Of a stretch of 64,000 nt of DNA, positions 30,694 through 45,203 are shown piece after piece (the stretch's first letter is position 1; every line of letters starts with the position of its first letter). Origin of the DNA: Paenibacillaceae bacterium (GTDB lineage Bacteria; Bacillota; Clostridia; Lachnospirales; Lachnospiraceae); NCBI GenBank assembly GCA_015057715.1, contig SVDS01000006.1:7140-71139 (forward strand), given 5' to 3'. The notes below the pieces were generated by a model. It made no database searches. It had not been told where the DNA came from and saw only the letters and a list, made by a program, of their open reading frames with translations. The position numbers and the translations under genes are program-made.

Positions 30694-31914
30694 TTATTTA
30701 GCAATCACTTTCACAAACTTCTTCTTACCCCGACGCACAACAGCTCCGTCAGTCAGCTGTTCTCTGGTATAGGAAGCTTTTATGTCATTCACGGTCTCTC
30801 CCTCTACGGTAACTCCGCCCTGTTCCACATTCCGTCTTGCTTCTGAACGGGAGGGTGCCAGTCCTGATTTCTGGAGAATGGTCAAAATATCAACACTGCC
30901 GTCTGTAAAATCAGCTTCATCAAGCTCACATAATGGCATATTTTCTGCATTACCGCCTGTAAACAGCTCTCTTGCGCTCTTTTTCGCCTTCTCTGCCTCT
31001 TCTTCCCCATGTACCAGCTTGGTCAGCTCATAAGCTAGAATTTCTTTTGCCTCGTTTAACTGGCTGCCTTCCCAGCTATCCATCTCATCGATCTGGCTTA
31101 AAGGAAGGAAGGTAAGCATACGCAGACATTTTAATACATCCGCATCGGCAATATTTCTCCAGTACTGGAAGAAATCAAATGGAGAAGTCTTTTCCGGATC
31201 AAGCCACACAGCCCCGGACTGGGTCTTTCCCATCTTCTTGCCTTCTGAGTTTAACAGCAGGGTGATGGTCATTGCGTGGGCATCCTTACCAAGCTTTCTG
31301 CGGATCAGTTCGGTTCCTCCAAGCATGTTGCTCCACTGATCATCTCCGCCGAACTGCATGTTGCAACCATGGCGCTGGAACAGCTCGTAGAAATCGTAGC
31401 TCTGCATGATCATATAGTTAAATTCCAGGAAGCTTAATCCTTTTTCCATACGCTGTTTGTAGCATTCTGCACTGAGCATCCGGTTTACTGAGAAATGTGG
31501 ACCGATTTCCCGCAGGAATTCAACGTAATTTAGATCCAACAGCCAGTCCGCATTGTTTACCATCATTGCTTTTCCTTCAGAAAAGTCAATAAAACGGCTC
31601 ATCTGCTGTTTAAAGCATTCACAGTTATGGGCAATGGTTTCCACTGTCATCATCTGACGCATGTCGCTTCTTCCGGATGGATCGCCAACCATAGCGGTTC
31701 CTCCGCCGATTAAAGCGATTGGTTTATTTCCTGCCTCCTGCAGACGTTTCATTAAACACAGAGCCATAAAATGTCCCACATGGAGACTGTCTGCTGTTGG
31801 GTCAAATCCAATATAAAATACTGCCTTTCCTTCATTGACCATTTTGCTGATCTCTTCTTCGTTGGTCACCTGGGCAATCAGCCCTCTGGCTTTCAGTTCT
31901 TCGTAGATTGTCAT
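30694..31914 (-). CDS. tyrS: Tyrosine--tRNA ligase
   Basis: 406 aa. HIGH-type motif [15 protein letters not shown]-type KMGKT and a C-terminal S4 domain. Confidence 0.95.
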
Positions 31915-31924
31915 TCCAATTCTC

Positions 31925-32225
31925 CTTTACAAAAAAATAAACCCCGTCCTGTTAAAAGGACGAGGTTAAAATCTCGCGTTACCACCTTTTTTCATAAACA
32001 GCTCACGCTGCTTATCTCTTCAAGTACCGTCTGATACTCTAGCACAATAACGGGTGCAGGAATCCGTCGCCGCCTACTGGGCAATCATGCCTTTGGGAGC
32101 GAAGCTCAAAGATGTATTCGCAGTCCGTTTTCCATGCGCCTTTCATCAACCGGCTGCTTTCTGTCTGGTTTTACGTACTGTTACTTGTTCTTATCAATGC
32201 TTTTGTTTATATATGAAGTTAGTTT
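31925..32225 (-). promoter_or_regulatory. T-box leader of tyrS with Tyr (UAC) specifier
   Basis: Minus-strand GGTGGTAACGCGAG (31986-31973). Terminator CCTCGTCCT-TTTAAC-AGGACGGGG plus a T-run (31965-31931). F-box CCGTTA. Specifier-loop GAA-TAC-A (TAC = 32116-32114). Promoter TTGACA (32256-32251)-17-TATACT (32233-32228). Confidence 0.9.
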
Positions 32226-35086: not shown

Positions 35087-35232
35087 ATCATTCTCCTCAC
35101 TTTTTCGCTGTTAATAACAGTTTTTTAAGTTAATTAATTGCATGAAAACTTTGATAATAATTTATCATACATTGTTCACTTTAAAAAGTTTTGGAATGTA
35201 AAGAAGACCTTTTGTAAGTAAAAAAAGAGAGA

Positions 35233-37011
35233 TTAACCATTAATATCTTTTAATTCTTCATGATACATCTCCCTATAAATGGAGCAGTCTTTCATTAATT
35301 TATCATGGCTACCAACTCCAACTATTTCACCACCTTCTAATACAACTATTTTAGTGGCATTTTTTGCGATTTTAACTCTATGAGTGATATAAATTCCAAT
35401 TTTGTCTTTACTTATATCAAAAAAACTTTTAAATATTTTCATTTCAGCCATTGCATCCAAAGCAGAACTTGGTTCATCAAGTAAAATAACATCTGCTTTT
35501 CTGTAATATGCTCTAGCTAAAGCTATTTTTTGCCATTGTCCTCCTGAAAGCTGACTTCCATTGTCAAACCAATTTCCTAAAGTCTTATTCAAATCATAAT
35601 AACCATTACTTTTCAAGAAATTTACGTTTGCTTTATTTAACGCCACATAAATTTCATCTGGATTTGCTTGCTTCGTAATATCTCCAATTACAATATTCTC
35701 TTCCAATGATCCTTCAAACTTTAAAAAATCTTGAAATAAAACTGATGTTCTTTTTCTATACGATTCAACGTCATATTCATTTATGTCTTGACCATTGACA
35801 AAAAAACAGCCCCTTGTTGATTTATAAAGTCCACAAATGATTTTGAATAATGTACTCTTTCCTGATCCATTTTTCCCGACTATAGCAATTTGTTCTCCTA
35901 TGTTGAGTTTTAAAGTAACATTCCTTAAAACATCGTCAAATTCAGGATAATCGTATCCTACTCCAGATAATTCCAATGAAGAAATTCTTTCTATTTTTAT
36001 TTTTGTTTCATTAACAACTTCTTCACCTTCTAAATTATTTAAAAATTCTTCTAATAATCGAATATACAAATTTGAATTATAAATAGTATAAATTCCTGAT
36101 GCCAAAGCATTTGTAGATCCTTGAACCATATTGATTGCATTTAAAAATGACATAGCTGTTCCAATCATTATAGAACCAATGTAAGCAGCATGAATTGCCA
36201 AAATCATTGTTACCAGACTAAATACATCTTGTATAAGAGCAATTGATATATTTAGGGCCGTTTTAAATTTCTCAATTTGATTTGATTGAGTAATAAAAAT
36301 ATTACTTAATTCTATATATTTATTTATAAAGTGGTTTTTTAGTCCAAAAGACTTTATCTCTTTAAAAGCAGTGTCATGAGTTAAAAGATAAGAATAGTAC
36401 CATGATTCTCTTTCCTTATCACTTCTTTTATATTTAATAATAAATTCTTTATCGCCTATAATTATCTCACCTGCAAACATTGAAAGAGAAATGACAAGGA
36501 GAATAACTTCTATCCAAACATTCCAGGAAATCAATATTATAGAAGCTAATATGGCGGATACTACATTAGAAAAAATACTCATAATTGCCTGTAAAGTCTG
36601 ATATGGCTTTGTAGCTATATCTTGCTCCAGACGTGCTATTGTATCATATGTCTCTGTTCTCTCAAGCGTTTCCAGGGATAATTTTGAACACTTCTCAATA
36701 ATGATTTTATTAATTCCATACTGCAATATGTTATTAAGTTTGTTTAATGTATAACCATTTATATTTTGTAATATTGTCCCTATACCAGATATTGCAAAAT
36801 ATATAATGATTAATTGTAATAAATTATTAAATGGTTTTTTTAGTAGTTGTATTTCATTAATAATTCTTTGACTTAACAAGAGTGTGGCAATAGGAAACCC
36901 TCCATTTATAAGTGATAGTATTAAAGAAAAAATAAACGTTTTTTTATTTATTTTACAAAGCAACCGAATCGTGTATATAAATAATCTTATATTGCTTTTA
37001 AATTTATTCAT
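35233..37011 (-). CDS. ABC exporter, fused TMD-NBD half transporter (peptide/bacteriocin-export type, no C39 peptidase domain)
   Basis: 592 aa. Six N-terminal TM helices begin at residue about 25. Walker A GKNGSGKST, signature LSGGQWQ, Walker B ILLDEPSSALD. Very AT-rich. RBS GAGGA. Confidence 0.85.
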   Translation of the reverse strand: MNKFKSNIRLFIYTIRLLCKINKKTFIFSLILSLINGGFPIATLLLSQRIINEIQLLKKPFNNLLQLIIIYFAISGIGTILQNINGYTLNKLNNILQYGINKIIIEKCSKLSLETLERTETYDTIARLEQDIATKPYQTLQAIMSIFSNVVSAILASIILISWNVWIEVILLVISLSMFAGEIIIGDKEFIIKYKRSDKERESWYYSYLLTHDTAFKEIKSFGLKNHFINKYIELSNIFITQSNQIEKFKTALNISIALIQDVFSLVTMILAIHAAYIGSIMIGTAMSFLNAINMVQGSTNALASGIYTIYNSNLYIRLLEEFLNNLEGEEVVNETKIKIERISSLELSGVGYDYPEFDDVLRNVTLKLNIGEQIAIVGKNGSGKSTLFKIICGLYKSTRGCFFVNGQDINEYDVESYRKRTSVLFQDFLKFEGSLEENIVIGDITKQANPDEIYVALNKANVNFLKSNGYYDLNKTLGNWFDNGSQLSGGQWQKIALARAYYRKADVILLDEPSSALDAMAEMKIFKSFFDISKDKIGIYITHRVKIAKNATKIVVLEGGEIVGVGSHDKLMKDCSIYREMYHEELKDING

Positions 37012-37040
37012 TATAATCCTCAGATATTATTATTTGGTTA

Positions 37041-37086
37041 GAAAGAGGTAGCATCTGAGAAAATTCTCAGATGCTACTGTCTTTCA
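37041..37086 (-). terminator. Stem-loop between the peptide gene and the exporter gene (partial terminator, attenuator or processing site)
   Basis: 12-bp perfect core stem gtagcatctgag (37048-37059) / ctcagatgctac (37066-37077), extendable by gaaaga/tctttc. Begins 13 nt after the peptide stop. No strong T-run follows. Confidence 0.5.
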
Positions 37087-37098
37087 ACGGCAAGTCAA

Positions 37099-37296
37099 TT
37101 ATGATGAGGACCGCACGGTTTTAATAGACTTTACTCTATTTCCTGTGCGATATTCACCACTACCACCACAGCCACAGCCACAATGAACGCAGCCATCATC
37201 ATTGCCTCTGTATCCAGCATATCCGCTAGAACATGTACATGCTTGAGGCTGAATACCACTTCCTGGGTTTCTCCCAATTGGATTGATGAATTTCAT
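37099..37296 (-). CDS. 65-aa Cys/Gly-rich candidate RiPP precursor peptide
   Basis: ATG at 37296 lies 7 nt after AAGGAGA. Sequence: MKFINPIGRNPGSGIQPQACTCSSGYAGYRGNDDGCVHCGCGCGGSGEYRTGNRVKSIKTVRSSS, with Cys at 20, 22, 36, 39, 41 and 43. Located 62 nt downstream of the radical SAM gene and followed by a hairpin and an ABC exporter. Confidence 0.7.
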   Translation of the reverse strand: MKFINPIGRNPGSGIQPQACTCSSGYAGYRGNDDGCVHCGCGCGGSGEYRTGNRVKSIKTVRSSS

Positions 37297-37358
37297 AGTT
37301 AATTCTCCTTTCCATTTCATTCTAAATACATTTATGTAAAACAAACGTATTTGACTAA

Positions 37359-38912
37359 CTAACGAAAATCCTTAGTATTATATTCCATCAGTTCTTCAGG
37401 ATTTTCTTCTAGTTCTGTGTGATAGCGAACCAGATTGTTTTCTAAATACAACCTCTCATTTCTACACGAATTATGTCTATATGAAAAATGTGGACCTTTT
37501 TGATCATAGCAATTCACATAACACATTGTACAAAGATTTACCGCCCAACAGTCTTTGCAATATTCCTTAGCATTATCTATAAAATCATTAACATACAATT
37601 TCTGAATACCCTCAAAATTAAATCCAGTATCAACATTTCCAATATCCGGAATATTTCCGACTTTTTCGCAGAGGAGAAATTTACCATCTACAGTTACATA
37701 TATTCTTCTTTGACCCGGAACACAACAACCGTTCATTCCATACGCTTTAACCGGATACTCGGATAATAGACGCTTATGTATAATTAACATTCCTTTATCC
37801 ATAACGCCATCTGAGAATAACCCCTTTTTCTCATTACCATTTTTCATTTCTCTGCGATGATTCCAATCCCATTCATTTAGCGGATCGTATGAACCATCTG
37901 TAAATTCACGTTCCTGAGAGCTTTGGGGAATAAAATATTCACTATCCTTAGGACCATGATCAACAGATGCAGTCAAAACCATAATATCTTTAGGAATCCA
38001 ATCTTCATGCTCTAAAAATTCCTGTATTTTATTATAGTTTTCTTCATAATTCGGACCTGAAACTACCATATTAAAAGATATTTTTGATTGCTTTCCTAAC
38101 CTGCTTTGTGTGTTTAGTAAAATTTGAGCACCTGCAACAGTTTTATTAAAGCTTCCCGTTCCATCTATGGTTATCCGATTCGCATCATGAATGTCTTTAG
38201 GACCATCTAAGCTTACAATAATATCAAAATCATTTTGTAATAAATAATCTGCAATTTCCTCAGTTACCAAAGCTGCATTGGTTGTCATTGCAAAAGTTAT
38301 TTCTTTAAAATTACTTTTTGCATATCTTACCGCTTGTTTAATTAATTCAAAGTTTAATAAGGGCTCTCCTCCATAAAAACCAATATGAACCTGTTCTGCA
38401 TCTTTAGAATGATTAATTAATAAATCGATTGCCTTTTTAGCTGTTTCCCAAGACATATTTTTGTGCCCAAACTCCCGATACTCTTTATGTGAAGGATTAT
38501 AAATACAGTATTTACATCGTAAGTTACATTTTTCGGTCACTTCCAGTGTGACATTCTCCACTCCACTTTCTAAAGTTTCCTTTAAGTGAGTTACTGCCGA
38601 ACCAGTTAATGTCGTAAGTACTGGAGCTGATAATATATGCTCTGATTTCACTGCATCTCTAATTTCGCTTATTGCACTTTCAATTTCCTCATCATTTAAA
38701 TCAAGATCTTTCAGATCTTCACAGCTATCGCTTTGCATTAAACAGTTCAAAACTTTATATACATTTTTTTTCAAACATGCAACCTTACCTGTTCCAGTAT
38801 CTAGAAAATAATAATTTTTGTCTGTTTTAAAAACTTTCCCCAGTCTACCCGGTCTACCACTGGAACAAAGTTCATTATAAAAATCTTTAATGCTATTATT
38901 AACAGCGACCAT
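37359..38912 (-). CDS. Radical SAM / SPASM-domain peptide maturase with an approximately 120-aa N-terminal extension
   Basis: 517 aa. C129-NLR-C-KY-C (first Cys codon 38528-38526), GGEPLL, and a C-terminal CVPGQRRIYVTVDGKFLLC ... CKDCWAVNLCTMC ... C pattern (auxiliary-cluster SPASM type). RBS AAGGAGA. Confidence 0.9.
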   Translation of the reverse strand: MVAVNNSIKDFYNELCSSGRPGRLGKVFKTDKNYYFLDTGTGKVACLKKNVYKVLNCLMQSDSCEDLKDLDLNDEEIESAISEIRDAVKSEHILSAPVLTTLTGSAVTHLKETLESGVENVTLEVTEKCNLRCKYCIYNPSHKEYREFGHKNMSWETAKKAIDLLINHSKDAEQVHIGFYGGEPLLNFELIKQAVRYAKSNFKEITFAMTTNAALVTEEIADYLLQNDFDIIVSLDGPKDIHDANRITIDGTGSFNKTVAGAQILLNTQSRLGKQSKISFNMVVSGPNYEENYNKIQEFLEHEDWIPKDIMVLTASVDHGPKDSEYFIPQSSQEREFTDGSYDPLNEWDWNHRREMKNGNEKKGLFSDGVMDKGMLIIHKRLLSEYPVKAYGMNGCCVPGQRRIYVTVDGKFLLCEKVGNIPDIGNVDTGFNFEGIQKLYVNDFIDNAKEYCKDCWAVNLCTMCYVNCYDQKGPHFSYRHNSCRNERLYLENNLVRYHTELEENPEELMEYNTKDFR

Positions 38913-39177
38913 ATTAATTCTCCTTCCATTACCAATCTTTTCTTGATAAAAATTTCATAAATAAAAAATCTTTTTTGTCTGGTATTATGATATCAAACAA
39001 AAAAGATTCCTATTTTAAGATTTTATATTAAAATTTAAAAGAATTGATTAAGAAACTTATTAATTATGGTACAAAAGTTATTAGTAATTTAAGTATTTAT
39101 TGTGCTATGTTTATATCTTTTTTAAATAAACTCACACAAACCGTTATATATACTTTTGATAATGTATAATTGATTTA

Positions 39178-40242
39178 CTAGTTTGGTATGGTAATTGTAA
39201 AAGAAATCGTTCCATCTTCACTTTTTGCAACAATGTCACCACAATGCAACTGTACAATTTCTTTCGCTATAGATAAGCCAAGACCTGCGCCATTTGAAAC
39301 AGATGCTCTCGATTTATCTAAACGATTAAATTTTTCAAAAATACGTAATAACTCCATTTCTGATAAGGTTTCACCCTCATTTTTAAAAACGATAATAAGC
39401 TTATCATCACAAATTTTTGCTGATATAAATATCTCCGTGTTTGAATAACTATAACTGATTGCATTCTTCAATAAATTGCTAAATGCTCTGGTCATTTTCT
39501 CAGGATCTATATTGCAATACAAATTTTCATTGATCTCTAATTTTAAAATATTGCCATTTTCTACGAGCATTGGGTAAAATTCATCTGTCAGTTGTACAAA
39601 CAAATAATATAAATCTACTTCTTGTTTATTAATTTCAATTTTTTGTGTATTATATTGAGTGATTTCGAAAAACTCATTTACCATTTGCTCTAGATGCATC
39701 GCCTTAGCAAGTAATATTTCTATATATTCTTGTCTTTTATTAACAGTTAATTCCGGCATATCTTTAATTAAGCTTAAATACCCAATAATAGAGGTTAATG
39801 GTGTTCGGATATCATGCGCTATATATGCAACTAATTCACTTTTTTTACTTTCTGCAACTTTCATTGACTGATCTGCCATTAAGTATGACATCTTAATCTG
39901 ATTCATTTGTGATTCAATTTCTTTTAATGGTTCAGATAATTTAATCACAGAATCATTTTTAAATAAAATCTCTACAGCATTAATTATTTCGTTTAGATAT
40001 TTCCACGGCTTATTCCAATAATACATAAATATATTTATAAAACCTATAATTATATATAGGAACTGAATCAATTCAATACGAAGTGTGAACCATTCCATTA
40101 TCGATGTATGGATCTTGCTCGAATAATAATCAAAAATTATTCTAAGAATCCAACCAATTACCAAATAAAGTAACAGGCTAATTATAAGATGGCACACCAG
40201 CTTTTTACTGCATTTAATATACTTCTCATTTTCCTTATACAA
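39178..40242 (-). CDS. VanS-like sensor histidine kinase, copy 1
   Basis: Two N-terminal TM helices with a short loop. H-box AHDIRTPLTSIIGYLSL, N-box LLKNAISYS, G-box GAGLGLSIA. Start proposed at the TTG at 40242 overlapping the RR1 stop (ATTGTATAA), by length alignment with copy 2. The ORF-track start (40365) would overlap RR1 by 131 nt. Confidence 0.8.
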   Translation of the reverse strand: MYKENEKYIKCSKKLVCHLIISLLLYLVIGWILRIIFDYYSSKIHTSIMEWFTLRIELIQFLYIIIGFINIFMYYWNKPWKYLNEIINAVEILFKNDSVIKLSEPLKEIESQMNQIKMSYLMADQSMKVAESKKSELVAYIAHDIRTPLTSIIGYLSLIKDMPELTVNKRQEYIEILLAKAMHLEQMVNEFFEITQYNTQKIEINKQEVDLYYLFVQLTDEFYPMLVENGNILKLEINENLYCNIDPEKMTRAFSNLLKNAISYSYSNTEIFISAKICDDKLIIVFKNEGETLSEMELLRIFEKFNRLDKSRASVSNGAGLGLSIAKEIVQLHCGDIVAKSEDGTISFTITIPN

Positions 40243-40927
40243 TTTTATAGCCAACCCCCCATACTGTTTTAATAAATTTGGGGTTTCCTGCCTGATCGCC
40301 AAGCTTTTCACGCAAATGACGCACGTGAACAGATATGGTGTTATTTTTTGTATAATAATCATCATGCCAAATTAGTCTAAAAAGTTCATCAGAGCTAACT
40401 ACTTCTCCTTTATGTTCCAACAGCAATCGTAATATATCATATTCACACGGTGTCAAGTTAAGCTGCTTTCCCTTTAAGCTACACTCTCTTGTTTTTACGT
40501 TGAGTTCCAAACCTAAGTATGACAAAACTCCTGAAAAATCTTCTACATCTGTCTGATTATATTTTTTGTATCTTCTTAGCTGCGCTTTCACTCTTGCTAT
40601 CATTTCCAATGGCAAAAAAGGTTTTGTAATATAGTCATCTGCACCTAATGTTAATCCATTAATTTTACTGACTTCATCCGTTTTGGAAGTCAGCATTATA
40701 ATTGGATACCGATATACTTCTCTGATTTTTTTGCATAAAAAGAAGCCATCCTTTCCTGGTAACATAATATCCAAAAGCACAAGATCAAATTCCACTGTAT
40801 CAATAATTTTTAAAGCAGCTTCAGCCGTAAAGCATTTGTAAACCTCAAAATTCTCATTCTCCAAGTATAATTCTATGAATTCAACTATGCTTTTTTCATC
40901 TTCGACAACTAAAATTTTGTTTGACAT
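40235..40927 (-). CDS. OmpR/VanR-family response regulator, copy 1
   Basis: Receiver ILVVEDEK...DLVLLDIMLPGKDG...KP and a winged-helix output ...VHVRHLREKL...IKTVWGVGYKI. Start at the ATG at 40927 after AAGGGGGA. Confidence 0.9.
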   Translation of the reverse strand: MSNKILVVEDEKSIVEFIELYLENENFEVYKCFTAEAALKIIDTVEFDLVLLDIMLPGKDGFFLCKKIREVYRYPIIMLTSKTDEVSKINGLTLGADDYITKPFLPLEMIARVKAQLRRYKKYNQTDVEDFSGVLSYLGLELNVKTRECSLKGKQLNLTPCEYDILRLLLEHKGEVVSSDELFRLIWHDDYYTKNNTISVHVRHLREKLGDQAGNPKFIKTVWGVGYKIV

Positions 40928-40970
40928 AACTAATTTCCCCCTTATTACAAACCACAACAATCTGTCTATT

Positions 40971-40998
40971 ATTATAACATGTAACTTTAATAATGTAA
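40971..40998 (-). promoter_or_regulatory. Candidate sigma-A promoter of the RR1-HK1 unit
   Basis: Minus strand reads TTACAT (40998-40993), 16-nt spacer, TATAAT (40976-40971). Lies in a direct repeat AAGTTACAT-N5-AAGTTACAT, just downstream of a strong terminator. Confidence 0.35.
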
Positions 40999-41069
40999 CT
41001 TAAACTTTTACATTAAATAACGTTATATAACTCTATCCTATTATTTCCTTTCCTCTGTTCTTCGATTTT

Positions 41070-41127
41070 AAACAAAAATAACCCTTATAGTAAGTCACAT
41101 TTTTCTTCTTAGTGACTTACTATAAGG
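41070..41127 (-). terminator. Strong rho-independent terminator after the ABC-2 permease gene
   Basis: 17-bp perfect stem cccttatagtaagtcac (41081-41097) / gtgacttactataaggg (41111-41127), followed on the minus strand by TTATTTTTGTT. Confidence 0.85.
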
Positions 41128-41157
41128 GCATGAAAGTTTCAAATGAATTAAAATTGT

Positions 41158-42402
41158 TCAATCAACCTGATGATTGCAATAAGTGCGTACAGCAAGATAT
41201 AGAAATAGAGGTATTTCAATTAATGTTGTTGCCATTATAATATAAGGTGACCAAATGCTCAAAGAACCAATATGCAGATAATTAAAGTCTGTCAACTGAT
41301 AAAGCAAGCTATTCTGCATACCAATTCCTCCTGAAGGCAAAATAAAACCAAGCCAAGCAAATCCTGCTGTATACGTAAATATCGGAATGAGACACATAGC
41401 AATTGCAATTAAAATAACCGAAGTAGAATCCTTGAATTTTGCTGATAAAAATAATGTAAAGCTAATCATTGCCAGCAGGGAACCAAGTCCTCCTAATGTT
41501 AAAACAGCTTGAAGCTCCCCTAAATTAAGCGCAGGCAGACTAATGACAGAAAATAACATCTGCATAGAAGTTTTCATACATTCTGGTCCAAATGCCAAGT
41601 CGGAGATTAATAAATGTAGTAAAATACAAATGAAAAATGTGATTGAAAAAATGGTCAATGCAGCAAATACCTTCACCATTGCAAGTCTGCTGCGTCCATG
41701 CCTGGTACAGCGCAAAATACTGTCTGATCCCGTTTGATATTCATTGGAAAAAGTAGGCGTAACCGCAGCTGTGCATAGAATGACTAACAGTAAAATATAA
41801 AGCATGATATAATCAAAGGCATCTCTTGAATACCCCGCATAAAACTGAAAAGGTGTTTTTACCTCAGCATATTTTTTTAAAGCCTGCTTCTGTGCAATTG
41901 GATTATCCTTATGCTCCATCTGCATAACATCTTTCAAGTGCTGCTCTACTTGTTCATAATAATTGTTTATCTTATCCGGGTTGATATCCATCAGACTTGC
42001 TGCCTGACCCGTTCTCGAATTAGAAAACGCCTCCGGCAGTCTTCCTAAAAGCGATTCGACCGGGAAAACCTTTTTAATATAAAGATCTTTTGGAAAATCT
42101 CCGCTGTAAAGGCTGTTCTCTCCATATTGTGATACTGTATTCTGATAGATTATTAACGCCTCCTTTAGTTTTTCCGGAGTGACTTCTCCGTTATTGGTGT
42201 GGCGCAACGTTTTTTTATAGGAAATTGCAGACAGGCCATTTAATTCGGCTACTTTGTTACCGTTTTGGTCATATTGATTGATATCTTCAAAAATAACAGG
42301 AAGCCAAGCCATTACCACGGACAATAATAGTGCAACAACTAATATAATAATTACACGGCGTGACTTAAGCACGCGTTTGATTTCCAAACAATAAATACGC
42401 AT
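41158..42402 (-). CDS. ABC-2-type transporter permease with a large first extracellular loop
   Basis: 414 aa. TM1 (VIIILVVALLLSVVMAWLPVIF), an approximately 170-aa soluble loop, then 5 TM helices. Translationally coupled to the upstream ATPase. Confidence 0.8.
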   Translation of the reverse strand: MRIYCLEIKRVLKSRRVIIILVVALLLSVVMAWLPVIFEDINQYDQNGNKVAELNGLSAISYKKTLRHTNNGEVTPEKLKEALIIYQNTVSQYGENSLYSGDFPKDLYIKKVFPVESLLGRLPEAFSNSRTGQAASLMDINPDKINNYYEQVEQHLKDVMQMEHKDNPIAQKQALKKYAEVKTPFQFYAGYSRDAFDYIMLYILLLVILCTAAVTPTFSNEYQTGSDSILRCTRHGRSRLAMVKVFAALTIFSITFFICILLHLLISDLAFGPECMKTSMQMLFSVISLPALNLGELQAVLTLGGLGSLLAMISFTLFLSAKFKDSTSVILIAIAMCLIPIFTYTAGFAWLGFILPSGGIGMQNSLLYQLTDFNYLHIGSLSIWSPYIIMATTLIEIPLFLYLAVRTYCNHQVD

Positions 42403-42405
42403 CGA

Positions 42406-43293
42406 TTACATCCCCCTTTCACTGACTTCTTCTTGCGGAAATAACCATAAATATAAATCTTCCAAACGAGGAGGTGCCAATACCGAGTTACTGGTTTTTC
42501 CTTCATCCGATAAATAACGGATTGATACCTGGTTGCTGCCTTCACTTCGCTGGTTAATGATGCGCAGCTGCATTTCATACATGGTGATCTTCTCGGCAGG
42601 CACAACACAAGTCCAGACCTTTCCCTGTACCTGCTTTACCAATTCGTCTGTTGTACCCACATTTACAATTTTACCTGCCTTCATAATTGCATTCTTTGTA
42701 GAAATATACTCAATATCAGATACGATATGGGTTGAAATTAAAACAATTCTTCCGTGGGAAAATTCGGAAACAAGGTTTCGAAAGCGAACCCTTTCGCCAG
42801 GATCAAGGCCTGCTGTTGGTTCGTCCATAATCAGAATTTTAGGATCATTCAACATCGCCTGTGCAATTCCCACCCGTCGTTTCATTCCACCGGACAACTT
42901 AATAATTTTTTTATTTTTTACATCCGTCAGGGTCAGTGTGTGCAGCAGATTGTCAATTTTTTTTCTTGTTTCCCTTACAGGTACATCCTTTAGGGCAGCC
43001 ACATATTCCAGATAATTCTTTACTGTAAAATCTTGAAAAAATCCAAAATCCTGAGGTAGAAATCCAAATAAATCTCTATATTCTTCCCCCATTGAATGAA
43101 TATCCCTGCCATCATAAAGAATTTTCCCGCTGGTTGGATTCAAAATATCTGCTATCATCCGCATCAGCGTGGTCTTCCCTGCTCCATTTGCTCCAAGCAG
43201 CCCCCATACTCCTGGCGTAAGACTTAAGTTAACATCATCTACTGCCATTTTATCTTTAAAATGCTTACTCAGATTTGATATCGTCAGTTCCAT
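42406..43293 (-). CDS. ABC transporter ATP-binding protein (ABC-2/BcrA-LanF-like subfamily)
   Basis: Walker A GANGAGKTT, signature LSGGMKRR, Walker B ILIMDEPTAGLD. Start at the ATG at 43293 after GAGGAGA. The ORF-track start is a GTG at 43308. Confidence 0.9.
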   Translation of the reverse strand: MELTISNLSKHFKDKMAVDDVNLSLTPGVWGLLGANGAGKTTLMRMIADILNPTSGKILYDGRDIHSMGEEYRDLFGFLPQDFGFFQDFTVKNYLEYVAALKDVPVRETRKKIDNLLHTLTLTDVKNKKIIKLSGGMKRRVGIAQAMLNDPKILIMDEPTAGLDPGERVRFRNLVSEFSHGRIVLISTHIVSDIEYISTKNAIMKAGKIVNVGTTDELVKQVQGKVWTCVVPAEKITMYEMQLRIINQRSEGSNQVSIRYLSDEGKTSNSVLAPPRLEDLYLWLFPQEEVSERGM

Positions 43294-43328
43294 GTCATTT
43301 CTCCTCACTTTTATTTAATAACAATGCA

Positions 43329-43370
43329 AAACGTCCCTGTTCTGTTTTATTTTACTGAACAAGGACGTTT
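43329..43370 (-). other. Strong stem-loop between HK2 and the ABC-2 operon (terminator of the RR2-HK2 unit and/or 5'-UTR structure)
   Basis: Minus strand reads AACGTCCTTGTTC-loop-GAACAGGGACGTT (one G-U pair) followed by TTGCATTGTTATT. Confidence 0.5.
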
Positions 43371-43396
43371 GATACTTTAAGATGAAGAGGATAATT

Positions 43397-43439
43397 TCCT
43401 AAGATTATCCTAACATCCTATTGATATTTTCCTAAAAAT
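43397..43439 (-). promoter_or_regulatory. Helically phased direct repeats (plus-strand TCCTAA at 43397, 43408, 43430), candidate OmpR-family response-regulator site upstream of the ABC-2 operon
   Basis: tcctaagatt / tcctaacatc / tcctaaaaat with 11-bp and 22-bp offsets. The first copy contains the heptamer TAAGATT also found in tandem upstream of RR2. Confidence 0.4.
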
Positions 43440-44487
43440 GACCAGGTAATGACACGGTAAAGGTAACCATATTGTTTTCACTATCTGCGGAAATTTTTCC
43501 GCCATGTAAACGAACAATTTCATCTGCAATGGATAAACCAAGCCCGGCACCACCAGTATCCGATTTACGGGCATCATCCAAACGGTTAAATTTTTCAAAA
43601 ATTGCAGTTAACTGATCAGGCGGAATTGTACTGCCATGATTAGTAAATGTAATAATGACTTTATCCTGTTGCTGTTCTGCTTTAATAATAATTTCCGAAT
43701 CAGGACTGGAATATGCAGCCGCGTTTTTGAGGATATTATTAAACACACGGGCCAATTTTTCAGAATCACCATAAACAGTCAGCATTTCATCTGCCTGAAG
43801 TATAGCAAAATTACCTTTCGCCGATAAGACTGGATAAAATTCGTCAATCAGTTGAACAAGCATATAATATAAATCCACATTTGTTTTCTCCAGCTTAATC
43901 TGGTGGGTATTATACCGTGCAATTTCAAAGAATTCGTTAATGAGTTTTTCCAGACGTATGGCTTTTTTCAATGTAATGCCAACATATTTTGATTTCTGTT
44001 CCATCGGCATGTCAGGCGCTTCGTCAAGCAGGCTTAAATACCCGATTATTGAGGTAAGTGGTGTGCGAATATCATGGGCCAGGTACATAACTAATTCATT
44101 CTTTTTGTTTTCTGCCTCTTTTACAGCCTGTTGACTGAGCAGGACGGCCATTTTAATTTGATTCATCTGCTTTTCCACATCTTTCAGCGGTTCGGATAAT
44201 TCAATGGCGCTGTCATTTAATTGATAGACGGTTTTAGTGGCTTTGACAACTTCCTCAAAATATAACCATGGTTTTTTCCAGTAATAATAGAAAATACAGC
44301 AACAGCCAACTACCAGATACAGAAAATAGAAAATTTCAATTCTAAGTTGGAGCCATAGAAAAAAAGAATTGGTTACTCTGCTGAATGCATAATCTAATAG
44401 TACCGTCAAAATATAGCCAGCCAACGTATACAGGATTAAGGTGACGAAAAGCCTGACACGTAATTTCTTTTCAATATTATTCTTCAT
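43432..44487 (-). CDS. VanS-like sensor histidine kinase, copy 2
   Basis: 351 aa, same architecture as copy 1. Shared strings: LSEPLK, QMNQIKM, AHDIRTPLTSIIGYLSL, NEFFEI, FEKFNRLD, GAGLGLSIA. Confidence 0.85.
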   Translation of the reverse strand: MKNNIEKKLRVRLFVTLILYTLAGYILTVLLDYAFSRVTNSFFLWLQLRIEIFYFLYLVVGCCCIFYYYWKKPWLYFEEVVKATKTVYQLNDSAIELSEPLKDVEKQMNQIKMAVLLSQQAVKEAENKKNELVMYLAHDIRTPLTSIIGYLSLLDEAPDMPMEQKSKYVGITLKKAIRLEKLINEFFEIARYNTHQIKLEKTNVDLYYMLVQLIDEFYPVLSAKGNFAILQADEMLTVYGDSEKLARVFNNILKNAAAYSSPDSEIIIKAEQQQDKVIITFTNHGSTIPPDQLTAIFEKFNRLDDARKSDTGGAGLGLSIADEIVRLHGGKISADSENNMVTFTVSLPGHF

Positions 44488-44507
44488 TACTATACCTCAA
44501 TTGGAAT

Positions 44508-45203
44508 TTATATTTTATACCCTACTCCCCATATCGTTTTAATGTATTTGGGTTCCTCTGCAGTGTCATCCATCTTCTCACGCAAATGCCGTATATGAAC
44601 GGTAATCGTGTTATTGCTTTTGCTGTAATACTCATCATGCCATATCTCATGAAACAGCGTTTCTGCGCTTACAACCGTTCCCTTATTCTGGAGTAAAATA
44701 CAGAGTATAGAAAATTCCGTTGGTGTGAGTGAAATGGGTTTTTCATTTATGAGGCATTCATGTGTTTTTGTATTAATTTCCAGATCTGAATAACACAAAA
44801 TCGGCGTTGTATCCAGTTCCTCCTTACCGGGATTGTACTTTTTGTAACGACGCAGCTGTGCTTTCACTCTGGCAATTAATTCCAGAGGGCGAAATGGTTT
44901 TGTCACATAGTCATCAGCCCCTAATGTTAAGCCCGTTATTTTATCTGTTTCTTCGTCTTTCGCGGTCAGCATAATAACCGGAAAAGTATAATGTTCTCGT
45001 ATTTTCCGGCAAAGCTCAAATCCGTTTATATCCGGCATCATAATATCTAAAATAGCAAGGTCAAGCTTTGTACTTTCTATGCAGGCAAGCGCTTCCTTTG
45101 CTGAATAATACTTACATACGGTATAGTTCTCGTTTTGCAGATAGACTTCTATTAAGTCTGCAATTTCCTGTTCGTCATCTACTACAAGAATGATATCATT
45201 CAT
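44508..45203 (-). CDS. OmpR/VanR-family response regulator, copy 2
   Basis: 231 aa, collinear with copy 1 (LTLGADDY.TKPF.PLE.IARVKAQLRRYKKYN ... HLREK ... GVGYKI). RBS AAAGGAGGAA. Confidence 0.9.
   Translation of the reverse strand: MNDIILVVDDEQEIADLIEVYLQNENYTVCKYYSAKEALACIESTKLDLAILDIMMPDINGFELCRKIREHYTFPVIMLTAKDEETDKITGLTLGADDYVTKPFRPLELIARVKAQLRRYKKYNPGKEELDTTPILCYSDLEINTKTHECLINEKPISLTPTEFSILCILLQNKGTVVSAETLFHEIWHDEYYSKSNNTITVHIRHLREKMDDTAEEPKYIKTIWGVGYKI

What the first reader, a model, noticed from the sequence alone, without database searches (positions are those of the whole stretch)
37099..37296. Unannotated-size precursor: 65-aa peptide with a CxC ... CxxCxCxC core and a long basic/hydroxyl tail
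The ORF track gives an 81-aa frame. The ATG at 37296 has a near-perfect AAGGAGA RBS at 7-nt spacing, which gives this peptide:

MKFINPIGRNPGSGIQPQA-CTCSSGYAGYRGNDDGCVHCGCGCGG-SGEYRTGNRVKSIKTVRSSS

- All six Cys (positions 20, 22, 36, 39, 41, 43) sit in a 24-residue Gly/Tyr/Asp-rich middle segment.
- The N-terminal 19 residues have no double-Gly or other cleavage motif that I recognise.
- The C-terminal 19 residues are a Cys-free, positively charged, Ser/Thr-rich follower.
- This three-part layout (short leader, central core, long follower) is atypical for sacti/ranthipeptides, where Cys donors and acceptors usually fill the C-terminal core.
- The CVHCGCGC run could alternatively be a metal-binding (Cu/Zn, metallophore-like) element rather than a set of thioether donors.
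- The gene is noticeably more GC-rich than its AT-rich neighbours because of its Gly/Cys codons.
Basis: partly seen in the sequence, partly recalled or inferred. Interest (0 to 1): 0.8.

Follow-up and report, generated by a model that had tools for sequence, protein, structure and literature searches.

The report
Known-family sactipeptide-type bacteriocin precursor gene
This is a real 65-residue precursor of a secreted, cross-linked antimicrobial-type peptide; it sits next to the enzyme that modifies it, but the family is already catalogued and named in public databases, so it is a good uncharacterised target and not a discovery.

Summary
Window 37099-37296 (-) encodes a 65-aa, six-Cys peptide with an AAGGAGA ribosome-binding site 7 nt before the ATG, followed by a very stable hairpin.

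It is a genuine coding gene. Third-codon positions carry most of the variation, and it is the only frame open in all 12 distinct orthologues compared.

It is not new. It scores 106 bits (cutoff 45) on NCBIfam TIGR04067, 'Apre_1838 family putative sactipeptide bacteriocin', and its homologues carry Pfam PF27802. The exact sequence is in GenBank, and the type gene was flagged in silico in 2011.

The adjacent 517-aa radical SAM enzyme is a sister of the proven ruminococcin C sactisynthases RumMC1/2: 36% identity and an identical seven-Cys SPASM signature. The order rSAM, peptide, ABC exporter is conserved in 13 of 16 loci with enough sequence to judge. A two-component system and an immunity-type ABC pair are also present, in an order that varies.

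The 'atypical follower' reading fails. In ruminococcin C1 the Cys-free basic tail carries the thioether acceptors. Here the tail stays constrained across about 100 sequence clusters.

Most likely this is the precursor of a double-hairpin thioether bacteriocin with up to six bridges. The chemistry is untested.

The parts
37099..37296 (-). 65-aa precursor peptide gene of the TIGR04067 / PF27802 family, with six Cys at positions 20, 22, 36, 39, 41 and 43
   Evidence: sequence; 106 bits against a cutoff of 45; conservation; coding signature; identical GenBank protein.
37304..37310 (-). Shine-Dalgarno AAGGAGA, 7 nt upstream of the ATG
   Evidence: An equivalent AGGAGG/AAGGAG lies at the same distance in all 17 related loci.
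37321..37352 (-). Conserved intergenic motif AAATACGTTTGTTTTACATAAATGTATTTAGA (palindrome TACAT-AA-ATGTA) between the rSAM stop and the peptide RBS. It may be a regulator box or an internal promoter; this is inferred.
   Evidence: conserved in the Lacrimispora, Coprococcus and Dorea-type loci, degenerate in Peptoniphilaceae. (unique in the window). Similar GTTACAT repeats lie before the response-regulator gene.
37048..37077 (-). 13-bp stem-loop immediately after the peptide stop codon. It is likely a terminator, attenuator or mRNA stabiliser placed ahead of the exporter gene.
   Evidence: (-28.8 kcal/mol, z = -9.4, none of 200 shuffles folds as well). A hairpin of different sequence lies at the same place in every lineage I read by eye.
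37359..38912 (-). 517-aa RRE / radical SAM / SPASM peptide maturase, a sister of the RumMC sactisynthases
   Evidence: RumMC model 452 bits, E = 2.8e-135, below the 720 cutoff. (36% identity over 484 aa to a true RumMC). (CNLRCKYC, GGEP, and the exact signature CX13GX4CX36CX2CX5CX2CX18C). (closest solved structure is CteB, 5WGG).
35233..37011 (-). 592-aa ABC exporter (fused permease and ATPase) without a C39 peptidase domain
   Evidence: it matches HlyB-type models only from about model position 130 onward. (28% identity along the full length to the exporter of the RumC locus). (conserved downstream of the peptide).
39178..40365 (-). VanS-like sensor histidine kinase. The true start is uncertain, because the ORF as listed overlaps the response-regulator gene.
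   Evidence: VanS model 333 bits, below its cutoff of 400; (syntenic).
40235..40927 (-). VanR/OmpR-type response regulator. The ATG at 40927 follows a GGGGG-rich RBS and a TG-extended TATAAT.
41158..42402 (-). ABC-2 family permease, a candidate self-immunity transporter. It is followed by a strong terminator-like hairpin at about 41075-41130.
   Evidence: PF12698; syntenic in nearly all loci.
42406..43293 (-). ABC ATPase partner of the ABC-2 permease. The probable start is the ATG at 43293, 7 nt after GAGGAG.
43432..45203 (-). Second two-component pair: histidine kinase 43432-44487 and response regulator 44508-45203, upstream of the immunity-type transporter
   Evidence: Its orthologues flank the cluster in the Dorea-type and E. 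plexicaudatum loci.

Best explanation
The ORF is the structural gene of a ribosomally synthesised, post-translationally modified peptide (RiPP) of the sactipeptide type.

Shown:
- It is a conserved coding gene of the curated Apre_1838/CLOSPO_01332 family.
- It always lies directly after a RumMC-like RRE / radical SAM / SPASM enzyme and usually just before an ABC exporter.
- It sits in a low-GC island that has moved between genera.

Inferred mechanism:
1. The conserved N-terminal MKxxNPxGR segment docks on the maturase's N-terminal recognition domain.
2. The enzyme cleaves SAM and abstracts a C-alpha hydrogen from acceptor residues that lie C-terminal to each group of Cys. It then joins each Cys sulfur to that carbon.
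3. By analogy with ruminococcin C1, this gives two hairpin domains. C20 and C22 are bridged into the 23-35 loop. C36, C39, C41 and C43 are bridged into the Cys-free basic tail (residues 44-65). That makes up to six bridges.
4. The modified peptide is exported by the downstream ABC transporter.
5. The leader is removed by a protease not encoded in the cluster.
6. The ABC ATPase and ABC-2 permease pair, under VanRS-like two-component control, protects the producer.
7. The hairpin after the gene raises the level of precursor transcript relative to exporter transcript.
For: - Family membership: TIGR04067 at 106 bits against a cutoff of 45, over the full length of the model. All 26 close homologues carry PF27802, named Bacteriocin_CLOSPO-01332.
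- Coding selection.
- Conserved neighbourhood: the order rSAM, peptide, ABC exporter holds in 13 of the 16 genome loci with enough sequence on both sides, across Lachnospiraceae and Peptoniphilaceae. A two-component system and an ABC ATPase plus ABC-2 permease pair are also present, in variable order. The same is true on plasmid pAPRE01, which adds a VanZ gene. A 42%-identical member also lies directly after a 525-aa rSAM gene.
- Maturase: the best model hit is RumMC at E = 2.8e-135. It is 36% identical over 484 aa to an enzyme that passes the RumMC cutoff with 869 bits. The window's enzyme and seven relatives all carry the exact RumMC SPASM signature CX13GX4CX36CX2CX5CX2CX18C reported in PMC8188230. 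RumMC1/2 are experimentally shown to install four S-C-alpha bridges (PMC6760926 and PMC8188230).
- Exporter: homologous to the RumC-locus exporter. The RumC locus shares the backbone of regulator, kinase, rSAM, peptide and exporter.
- Layout parallel with RumC1: RumC1 has C3-N16, C5-A12, C22-K42 and C26-R34 (sequence verified against PDB 6T33). An ungapped alignment puts C20/C22 on RumC C3/C5 and C39/C43 on C22/C26.
- Conservation: five Cys are invariant and C41 is 99% conserved in 69 diverged members, and several tail positions are constrained.
- Related family: the weakly related precursor CA_C0660 and the nearby Fe-S gene CA_C0658 both have measured transcripts that fall together in C. acetobutylicum adhE mutants (PMC4845359).
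Against: - No chemistry has been done on any member. I found no experimental paper.
- Peptide-level homology to RumC is not significant: BLASTP E = 0.085 and hhalign probability 3.8%. The peptide does not hit the RumC model, so the bridge map is only an analogy.
- The maturase falls below the curated cutoffs of both RumMC (452 < 720) and CcpM (313 < 500).
- The closest solved structure is CteB, which acts on SCIFF peptides. From my own knowledge, several predicted 'sactipeptides' proved to carry beta- or gamma-carbon thioethers (ranthipeptides).
- No leader protease is encoded nearby. The RumC locus has an M16 peptidase; this window has none.
- AlphaFold gave no usable model (pLDDT 35.6).
- Expression in this organism is untested.
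Confidence: 0.72

Rival explanations
1. Ranthipeptide rather than sactipeptide. The same precursor, enzyme and exporter logic applies, but the rSAM links Cys sulfur to beta or gamma carbons (for example of Asp, Asn or Thr). The product might act as a signal and not as an antibiotic.
For: - Conserved Asp34 (78%), Asn53 (88%) and Thr60 (65%) could serve as non-alpha acceptors.
- The maturase also matches the PapB (160 bits) and SCIFF (151 bits) maturase models.
- The closest solved structure is CteB.
- A distant member sits beside an Agr/LytTR quorum-sensing module.
- From my own knowledge, many in-silico 'sactipeptides' were later reassigned as ranthipeptides.
Against: - The enzyme's nearest characterised relatives by a wide margin are RumMC1/2: 452 bits against 160 or less for the others, with an identical SPASM spacing. 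Those enzymes abstract the C-alpha hydrogen (PMC8188230).
- The immunity-type ABC transporter, VanRS-like sensing and VanZ in the type locus fit an envelope-active antibiotic.
Confidence: 0.15
2. Metal-binding peptide (metallophore-like or metallothionein-like). The CxC ... CxHCGCxC cluster would chelate Cu, Zn or Fe, and would not donate sulfur to thioethers.
For: Six clustered, essentially invariant Cys and a frequent His38.
Against: - His38 is replaced by R/K/N/Y/T/W/F/V/Q in 34% of 104 members.
- C41 is replaced only by Tyr, Phe or Trp, which are not metal ligands.
- An rSAM/SPASM peptide maturase precedes the full-length gene in 16 of the 17 genome loci that hold it, on pAPRE01 and in L024.
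- No metal-uptake or metal-efflux family was found among the eight cluster proteins I scanned. The second two-component pair was not scanned.
- The constrained Cys-free tail has no role in this model.
Confidence: 0.03
3. It is not a peptide gene. The conserved element would be an RNA, or a chance ORF created by local composition.
For: The ORF is short and is followed by a very stable hairpin.
Against: - Variation by codon position is 29/16/56. Pairwise codon differences are 1443 synonymous against 905 nonsynonymous in this frame, compared with 117-1098 synonymous against 1283-2325 nonsynonymous in the other five frames. It is the only frame free of stops in all 12 sequences, and the conserved Arg residues switch between AGA and CGT codons.
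- A conserved RBS precedes the start.
- No Rfam family matches in the cluster.
- The hairpin lies outside the ORF, and its sequence is not conserved between lineages.
Confidence: 0.01

Closest known systems
Apre_1838 / CLOSPO_01332 family putative sactipeptide bacteriocin (NCBIfam TIGR04067; Pfam PF27802). The type gene is on Anaerococcus prevotii plasmid pAPRE01.
   Same: - The match covers the full model, above the curated cutoff.
- The window peptide is 70% identical to Apre_1838.
- The gene order is the same: regulator, kinase, ABC ATPase, permease, rSAM, peptide, exporter.
- The rSAM carries the same CNLRCKYC motif noted by Murphy et al. 2011.
   Different: Nothing essential. The Peptoniphilaceae loci carry an extra ABC-2 permease gene between the peptide and the exporter, and pAPRE01 also carries VanZ. 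The window instead has a second two-component pair.
Ruminococcin C (RumC1-5) with the sactisynthases RumMC1/2 of Mediterraneibacter (Ruminococcus) gnavus E1; NCBIfam NF035950 and NF035951; PDB 6T33
   Same: - The maturase is 36% identical and has the same RRE / rSAM / SPASM layout with an identical seven-Cys SPASM spacing.
- The exporter is homologous.
- The operon backbone is the same.
- The precursors are about 63-65 aa, with about 19-21 residues before a CxC pair, a loop, a second Cys group, and then a Cys-free basic tail. In RumC1 that tail carries the acceptors R34 and K42.
   Different: - The peptide sequences are not demonstrably homologous. The window peptide does not hit the RumC model, and the rSAM is below the RumMC cutoff.
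- This family has six Cys (CxC ... CxxCxCxC) where RumC has four (CxC ... CxxxC).
- The leader motif differs: MKxxNPxGR here against MRKIVAGKLQTGADFEGSK in RumC1.
- There is a single precursor gene here, against several in the RumC locus.
- The window has no M16 leader peptidase.
CcpM system (TIGR04068 'Cys-rich peptide radical SAM maturase' with TIGR04066 and TIGR04069 accessory proteins and a subtilase)
   Same: It is the second-best model for the maturase (313 bits). It also acts on Cys-rich clostridial peptides.
   Different: The score is below the cutoff of 500. The accessory proteins described for that system (PMC4573289) were not found among the eight cluster proteins scanned.
CA_C0660 family putative sactipeptide bacteriocin (NF035954, Clostridium acetobutylicum)
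   Same: Both the window peptide (E = 1.2e-4) and RumC1 (E = 0.0088) weakly hit this model, so it may bridge the two families. CA_C0660 and the nearby Fe-S gene CA_C0658 are transcribed and change together.
   Different: The score of 22 bits is far below the cutoff of 60. This is a separate family.

Membership tests
TIGR04067 / PF27802 (Apre_1838 / CLOSPO_01332 putative sactipeptide bacteriocin) | Score above the curated HMM cutoff over the full length of the model | tested here: met
   106 bits against a cutoff of 45; peptide residues 1-58 match model positions 1-59 of 59. Homologues carry PF27802.
TIGR04067 / PF27802 (Apre_1838 / CLOSPO_01332 putative sactipeptide bacteriocin) | Six-Cys signature AC.C ... 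C..CGC.C with the N-terminal MKxxNPxGR motif | tested here: met
   C20, C22, C36, C39 and C43 are invariant and C41 is 99% conserved in 69 members. P6, G8 and A19 are at 94% or more. The window has all of them.
TIGR04067 / PF27802 (Apre_1838 / CLOSPO_01332 putative sactipeptide bacteriocin) | Encoded directly downstream of a RumMC-like rSAM/SPASM maturase | tested here: met
   Window: the rSAM gene ends 62 nt upstream of the peptide ATG. An rSAM gene precedes the full-length peptide gene in 16 of the 17 genome loci that hold it (15 intact, one IS-disrupted), on pAPRE01 and in L024.
Sactipeptides (RiPP class) | Cys sulfur to alpha-carbon thioether bridges in the mature product | not testable with these tools
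   This needs MS/MS and NMR of the modified peptide. No experimental report on this family was found.
Sactipeptides (RiPP class) | Radical SAM maturase with CX3CX2C and a SPASM domain holding auxiliary Fe-S clusters, plus an N-terminal RRE | tested here: met
   CNLRCKYC at residue 129, and CX13GX4CX36CX2CX5CX2CX18C at residues 396-483. The N-terminal residues 24-98 align with the RumMC region that PMC8188230 assigns as the RRE. The RRE fold itself is inferred.
Sactipeptides (RiPP class) | Cys donors lie N-terminal to their acceptor residues, allowing hairpin topology | tested here: inconclusive
   The layout allows it: there are 13 residues between C22 and C36 and 22 residues after C43. Family medians are 15 and 21. 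The acceptors are not known.
RumC family sactipeptide (NF035950) with the RumMC maturase (NF035951) | Peptide scores above the RumC HMM cutoff of 40 bits | tested here: not met
   There is no hit at E <= 0.01, whereas RumC1 scores 114 bits. The profile-profile comparison gives a probability of 3.8%.
RumC family sactipeptide (NF035950) with the RumMC maturase (NF035951) | Maturase scores above the RumMC cutoff of 720 bits | tested here: not met
   452 bits for the window enzyme, and 458 and 472 bits for two orthologues, against 869 bits for a true RumMC.
RumC family sactipeptide (NF035950) with the RumMC maturase (NF035951) | M16 metallopeptidase (RumPc) in the cluster for leader cleavage | tested here: not met
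   It is present in the RumC locus L020. Among the cluster proteins I scanned, which are all those of 200 aa or more between 33242 and 43308, none matches a peptidase family.
CcpM system (TIGR04068) | Maturase above the cutoff of 500 bits, with TIGR04066 and TIGR04069 accessory genes | tested here: not met
   313 bits. No such accessory proteins were found among the scanned cluster proteins.
Ranthipeptides (PapB / SCIFF type) | Maturase above the PapB (340) or SCIFF (425) cutoff; thioether to beta or gamma carbon | tested here: not met
   160 and 151 bits. The linkage chemistry cannot be tested here.

The most novel reading that the evidence does not exclude
All six conserved Cys act as donors. 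That would give a hexa-thioether double hairpin: two bridges in the N-terminal domain and four nested bridges into the basic tail. From my own knowledge, no characterised sactipeptide has more than four bridges. Alternatively, position 41, where Cys is replaced only by Tyr, Phe or Trp, takes part in a second kind of cross-link made by the same RumMC-like enzyme.
Probability: 0.25. Interest if true: 0.55.

Novelty: already known. Interest (0 to 1): 0.3.

Why it matters
The family is catalogued but chemically uncharacterised. It is a sister to ruminococcin C, a gut-microbiome sactipeptide studied as an antibiotic lead against Clostridium and multidrug-resistant Gram-positive bacteria (PMC6760926).

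A six-Cys relative is spread across about 100 sequence clusters of gut and skin anaerobes. It is carried on a conjugative plasmid and on islands that are 99-100% identical between genera. That makes it a sensible target for heterologous co-expression with its single maturase, and it could extend the known range of thioether topologies.

For genome annotation the finding adds nothing new, because current pipelines already name the gene.

Tried and rejected
- AlphaFold2 on the peptide with a 12-sequence alignment gave a mean pLDDT of 35.6 and no secondary structure. It says nothing about hairpins.
- A PDB sequence search with the peptide returned only spurious low-complexity matches. RumC1 (6T33) was not retrieved.
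- Direct and profile-profile comparisons with RumC showed a consistent ungapped register but no significance. I therefore do not claim peptide homology.
- My first literature search was swamped by unrelated 'CCPM' acronyms. Searches for the peptide's sequence motifs found no relevant paper.
- Gnavucin D (2026) turned out to be thurincin H-like and unrelated.
- The generic promoter scan gave no enrichment over shuffles (52 sites against 51.2 expected), so I assign no promoter from it.
- I considered a CcpM-type system and rejected it: the score is below the cutoff and the accessory genes are absent.
- I considered that the SPASM Cys spacing was aberrant, because the canonical CX2CX5CX3C regex failed. 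It is the exact spacing published for RumMC.
- A search for a second precursor copy in the window found none.
Full report
OBSERVATION

The minus strand of window 37099-37344 holds an 81-aa ORF that starts at a TTG. The ATG at 37296 gives the 65-aa peptide MKFINPIGRNPGSGIQPQACTCSSGYAGYRGNDDGCVHCGCGCGGSGEYRTGNRVKSIKTVRSSS. AAGGAGA lies at 37310-37304, exactly 7 nt before the ATG.

The six Cys are at positions 20, 22, 36, 39, 41 and 43. The tail after C43 is 22 residues long, Cys-free, and carries five Arg/Lys and one Glu.

The gene is 44.5% GC against about 22-35% in its neighbours. By codon position its GC is 0.44/0.61/0.29, while the neighbours have GC2 of 0.26-0.35. One nuance is that 43-45% is the normal GC of the window. 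It is the cluster from about 35.2 to 42 kb that forms a 29-33% GC island.

IS IT A REAL GENE?

Yes. The evidence is as follows.
- Seventeen related genome loci carry the same frame with a Shine-Dalgarno 6-8 nt before an ATG or GTG.
- Across 12 distinct gene sequences, the variable columns by codon position are 29/16/56 of 63.
- Pairwise codon differences are 1443 synonymous against 905 nonsynonymous in this frame. The other five frames show 117-1098 synonymous against 1283-2325 nonsynonymous.
- It is the only frame without stops in all 12 sequences, and the conserved arginines switch between AGA and CGT codons.
- No Rfam family reaches its gathering threshold in the cluster. The window's only Rfam hit is a T-box at 31953-32206.

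Expression itself cannot be tested here.

WHAT IS IT?

The peptide matches NCBIfam TIGR04067, 'Apre_1838 family putative sactipeptide bacteriocin', at 106 bits against a cutoff of 45, over the whole model. All 26 close homologues carry Pfam PF27802, which is named Bacteriocin_CLOSPO-01332.

The exact 65-aa sequence is GenBank MBE5991242.1, 'putative bacteriocin precursor'. Members of its 90%-identity cluster are RefSeq WP_084326305.1, 'Apre_1838 family putative sactipeptide bacteriocin [Lacrimispora]'.

The type gene lies on the conjugative plasmid pAPRE01 of Anaerococcus prevotii and is annotated by that name. Murphy et al. 2011 (PMC3132745) had already singled out Apre_1838 (65 aa) next to the rSAM Apre_1837, which has the same CNLRCKYC motif. 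Letzel et al. 2014 list that cluster too.

I found no experimental characterisation of any member.

FAMILY ANATOMY

An exhaustive profile search finds 97 clusters at 50% identity, nearly all of 60-75 aa. In 69 full-length members that are 33-80% identical:
- M1, C20, C22, C36, C39 and C43 are invariant.
- P6, G8, A19, G40 and C41 are conserved at 94% or more.
- The consensus is MKxINPxGR, then a linker of variable length, then PRAC.C, F/Y.., R/K-G..D.C.HCGC.C, and finally GN...A..T.R.S.
- His38 is present in only 59% of these 69 members, and in 66% of a wider set of 104.
- C41 is replaced in 6 of 104 members, and always by Tyr, Phe or Trp.
- The Cys-free tail is not drifting: N53 is 88%, position 57 is always Ala or Ser, T60 is 65%, R62 is 72% and S64 is 93%.

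NEIGHBOURHOOD

- Directly upstream (37359-38912) is a 517-aa radical SAM enzyme with CNLRCKYC, GGEP and eight C-terminal Cys.
- Directly downstream (35233-37011) is a 592-aa ABC exporter that lacks a C39 peptidase domain.
- Further upstream are a VanS/VanR-like two-component pair, an ABC-2 permease with its ATPase, and a second two-component pair.
- The order rSAM, peptide, ABC exporter holds in 13 of the 16 genome loci with enough sequence on both sides, in Lacrimispora, Coprococcus, Dorea, Maccoyibacter, Anaerococcus, Ezakiella and Aedoeadaptatus. The two-component and immunity-type ABC genes are also present, in an order that varies.
- A member only 42% identical also follows a 525-aa rSAM gene, there with AgrB and LytTR quorum-sensing genes.
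- A stem-loop of -28.8 kcal/mol (z = -9.4) follows the stop codon. Every lineage I read by eye has a hairpin at that place, with a different sequence. This suggests a conserved role, such as attenuation before the exporter gene or stabilisation of the precursor mRNA. That role is inferred.

THE ENZYME AND THE CLOSEST CHARACTERISED SYSTEM

The maturase's best model is RumMC (452 bits, E = 2.8e-135). It is followed by CcpM (313), the lachnocin maturase (205), QhpD (173), PapB (160) and the SCIFF maturase (151). All of these are below their curated cutoffs.

I fetched a genuine RumC locus from M. gnavus. Its rSAM scores 869 bits on the RumMC model and is 36% identical to the window enzyme over 484 aa, with E = 8e-107. 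The exporters are 28% identical along their full length.

Balty et al. (PMC8188230) define the RumMC SPASM signature as CX13GX4CX36CX2CX5CX2CX18C. They show three [4Fe-4S] clusters and C-alpha hydrogen abstraction. The window enzyme and seven relatives, including Apre_1837 and the distant L024 enzyme, carry exactly that spacing. The enzyme is therefore a sister clade of proven sactisynthases, although it is not a RumMC equivalog.

THE 'ATYPICAL FOLLOWER'

RumC1's sequence was verified against PDB 6T33. Its four bridges are C3-N16, C5-A12, C22-K42 and C26-R34. They form two hairpin domains, and the acceptors of the second domain lie in a Cys-free basic tail (PMC6760926).

The window peptide has the same plan: about 19 residues, then CxC, a 13-residue loop, a second Cys group, and a 22-residue basic tail. 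An ungapped alignment puts C20/C22 on RumC C3/C5 and C39/C43 on C22/C26. That alignment is not statistically significant: BLASTP gives E = 0.085, and hhalign gives a probability of 3.8% with E = 0.011. I therefore claim a shared architecture and not peptide homology.

Both peptides weakly hit the CA_C0660 family model.

Given the constrained tail, the simplest reading is that the tail is the acceptor half of the core and not a follower.

MECHANISM

My best explanation has a confidence of about 0.72.
1. The leader motif is recognised by the maturase's N-terminal domain.
2. Radical S-C-alpha thioether formation gives a double hairpin with up to six bridges.
3. The peptide is exported by the ABC transporter.
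4. The leader is removed by a protease encoded elsewhere. None lies in the cluster, whereas the RumC locus has an M16 peptidase.
5. The ABC ATPase and ABC-2 permease provide self-protection under two-component control.

Only the genetic associations and homologies are shown. Every chemical step is inferred.

RIVALS

- A ranthipeptide, with linkage to a beta or gamma carbon (0.15). Only NMR can settle this.
- A metal-binding peptide (0.03). This is weakened by the variable His38, the aromatic replacements of C41, the near-obligate rSAM partner and the constrained tail.
- Not a gene at all (0.01 or less). This is refuted.

ORIGIN AND MOBILITY

The window's cluster is 86% identical in DNA to those of [Clostridium] aerotolerans and Lacrimispora algidixylanolytica. 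The homology runs from 43316 down to 35238 and stops at the end of the exporter gene. The window is therefore probably from a Lacrimispora-like organism, and 35238 marks one edge of the island.

The 12.2-kb loci are 100% identical between Dorea amylophila and D. acetigenes, and 99.3% identical in Maccoyibacter. They are 100% identical between Aedoeadaptatus ivorii and Ezakiella coagulans. Together with the plasmid-borne type locus and the low GC of the cluster, this indicates recent horizontal spread.

VERDICT

The claims of an atypical layout, of being unannotated, and of a possible metal site do not hold.

The feature is an already catalogued but chemically uncharacterised member of a RumC-sister family. 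Interest is modest (0.3). It would rise if the six Cys prove to make a new thioether topology.

Noticed in passing
L014, L016, L017, L013, L015; L009, L011, L010, L012: Whole 12.2-kb clusters are 100% identical between Dorea amylophila and D. acetigenes, and 99.3% identical in Maccoyibacter intestinihominis. They are 100% identical between Aedoeadaptatus ivorii and Ezakiella coagulans, and 97.6% identical in Anaerococcus tetradius. This indicates very recent transfer between genera, or possibly cross-contaminated assemblies. The type locus is on a conjugative MOBQ plasmid.
   Followed up: partly
L015:3430-4921: In Gallintestinimicrobium propionicum the rSAM maturase gene is split by a 1.5-kb insertion that encodes a 420-aa ORF. 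From my own knowledge it looks like an IS256-type transposase; I did not scan it. The peptide and exporter genes remain intact.
   Followed up: partly
L018:985-5770, and protein P0121: A decayed cluster in a Clostridioides MAG keeps the immunity-type ABC pair and the two-component system. It has no rSAM, only residues 31-64 of the peptide, and a truncated exporter. This looks like retention of orphan immunity genes. P0121 appears to be a fusion of an rSAM N-terminus to the peptide's C-terminus.
   Followed up: no
window 37321-37352 (-) and about 40970-41010 (-): A conserved palindrome-containing motif (TTTACATAAATGTA) lies between the rSAM stop and the peptide RBS. GTTACAT repeats lie next to a TG-extended TATAAT in front of the response-regulator gene. 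These may be binding sites for the VanR-like regulator, and the first may mark an internal promoter for the precursor.
   Followed up: partly
family alignment, position 41 of the peptide: When Cys41 is absent (6 of 104 members) it is replaced only by Tyr (3), Phe (2) or Trp (1). It is never replaced by Ser, Arg or Gly, which are equally reachable by a single nucleotide change. The events may not be independent.
   Followed up: partly
window 35200-42000: The cluster forms a 29-33% GC island in a window that averages about 43-45% GC. Homology to the Lacrimispora clusters ends exactly at the exporter stop codon, about 35238.
   Followed up: partly
window 31953-32206 (-): A T-box leader (Rfam RF00230, 114 bits) lies upstream of the tyrosyl-tRNA synthetase-like gene at 30694-31914. 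This is ordinary.
   Followed up: no
window 43309-43431 (-): The intergenic region before the immunity-type ABC ATPase contains repeated TTAGGA/TAGGA motifs (tTTAGGAAaatatcaaTAGGAtgTTAGGAtaatcTTAGGAAatt). They may be a response-regulator binding array for the second two-component system.
   Followed up: no
window 39178-40365 (-): The listed ORF of the VanS-like kinase overlaps the 3' end of the response-regulator gene by about 130 nt, and it has no internal ATG nearby. The real start is probably a non-ATG codon near 40240.
   Followed up: no
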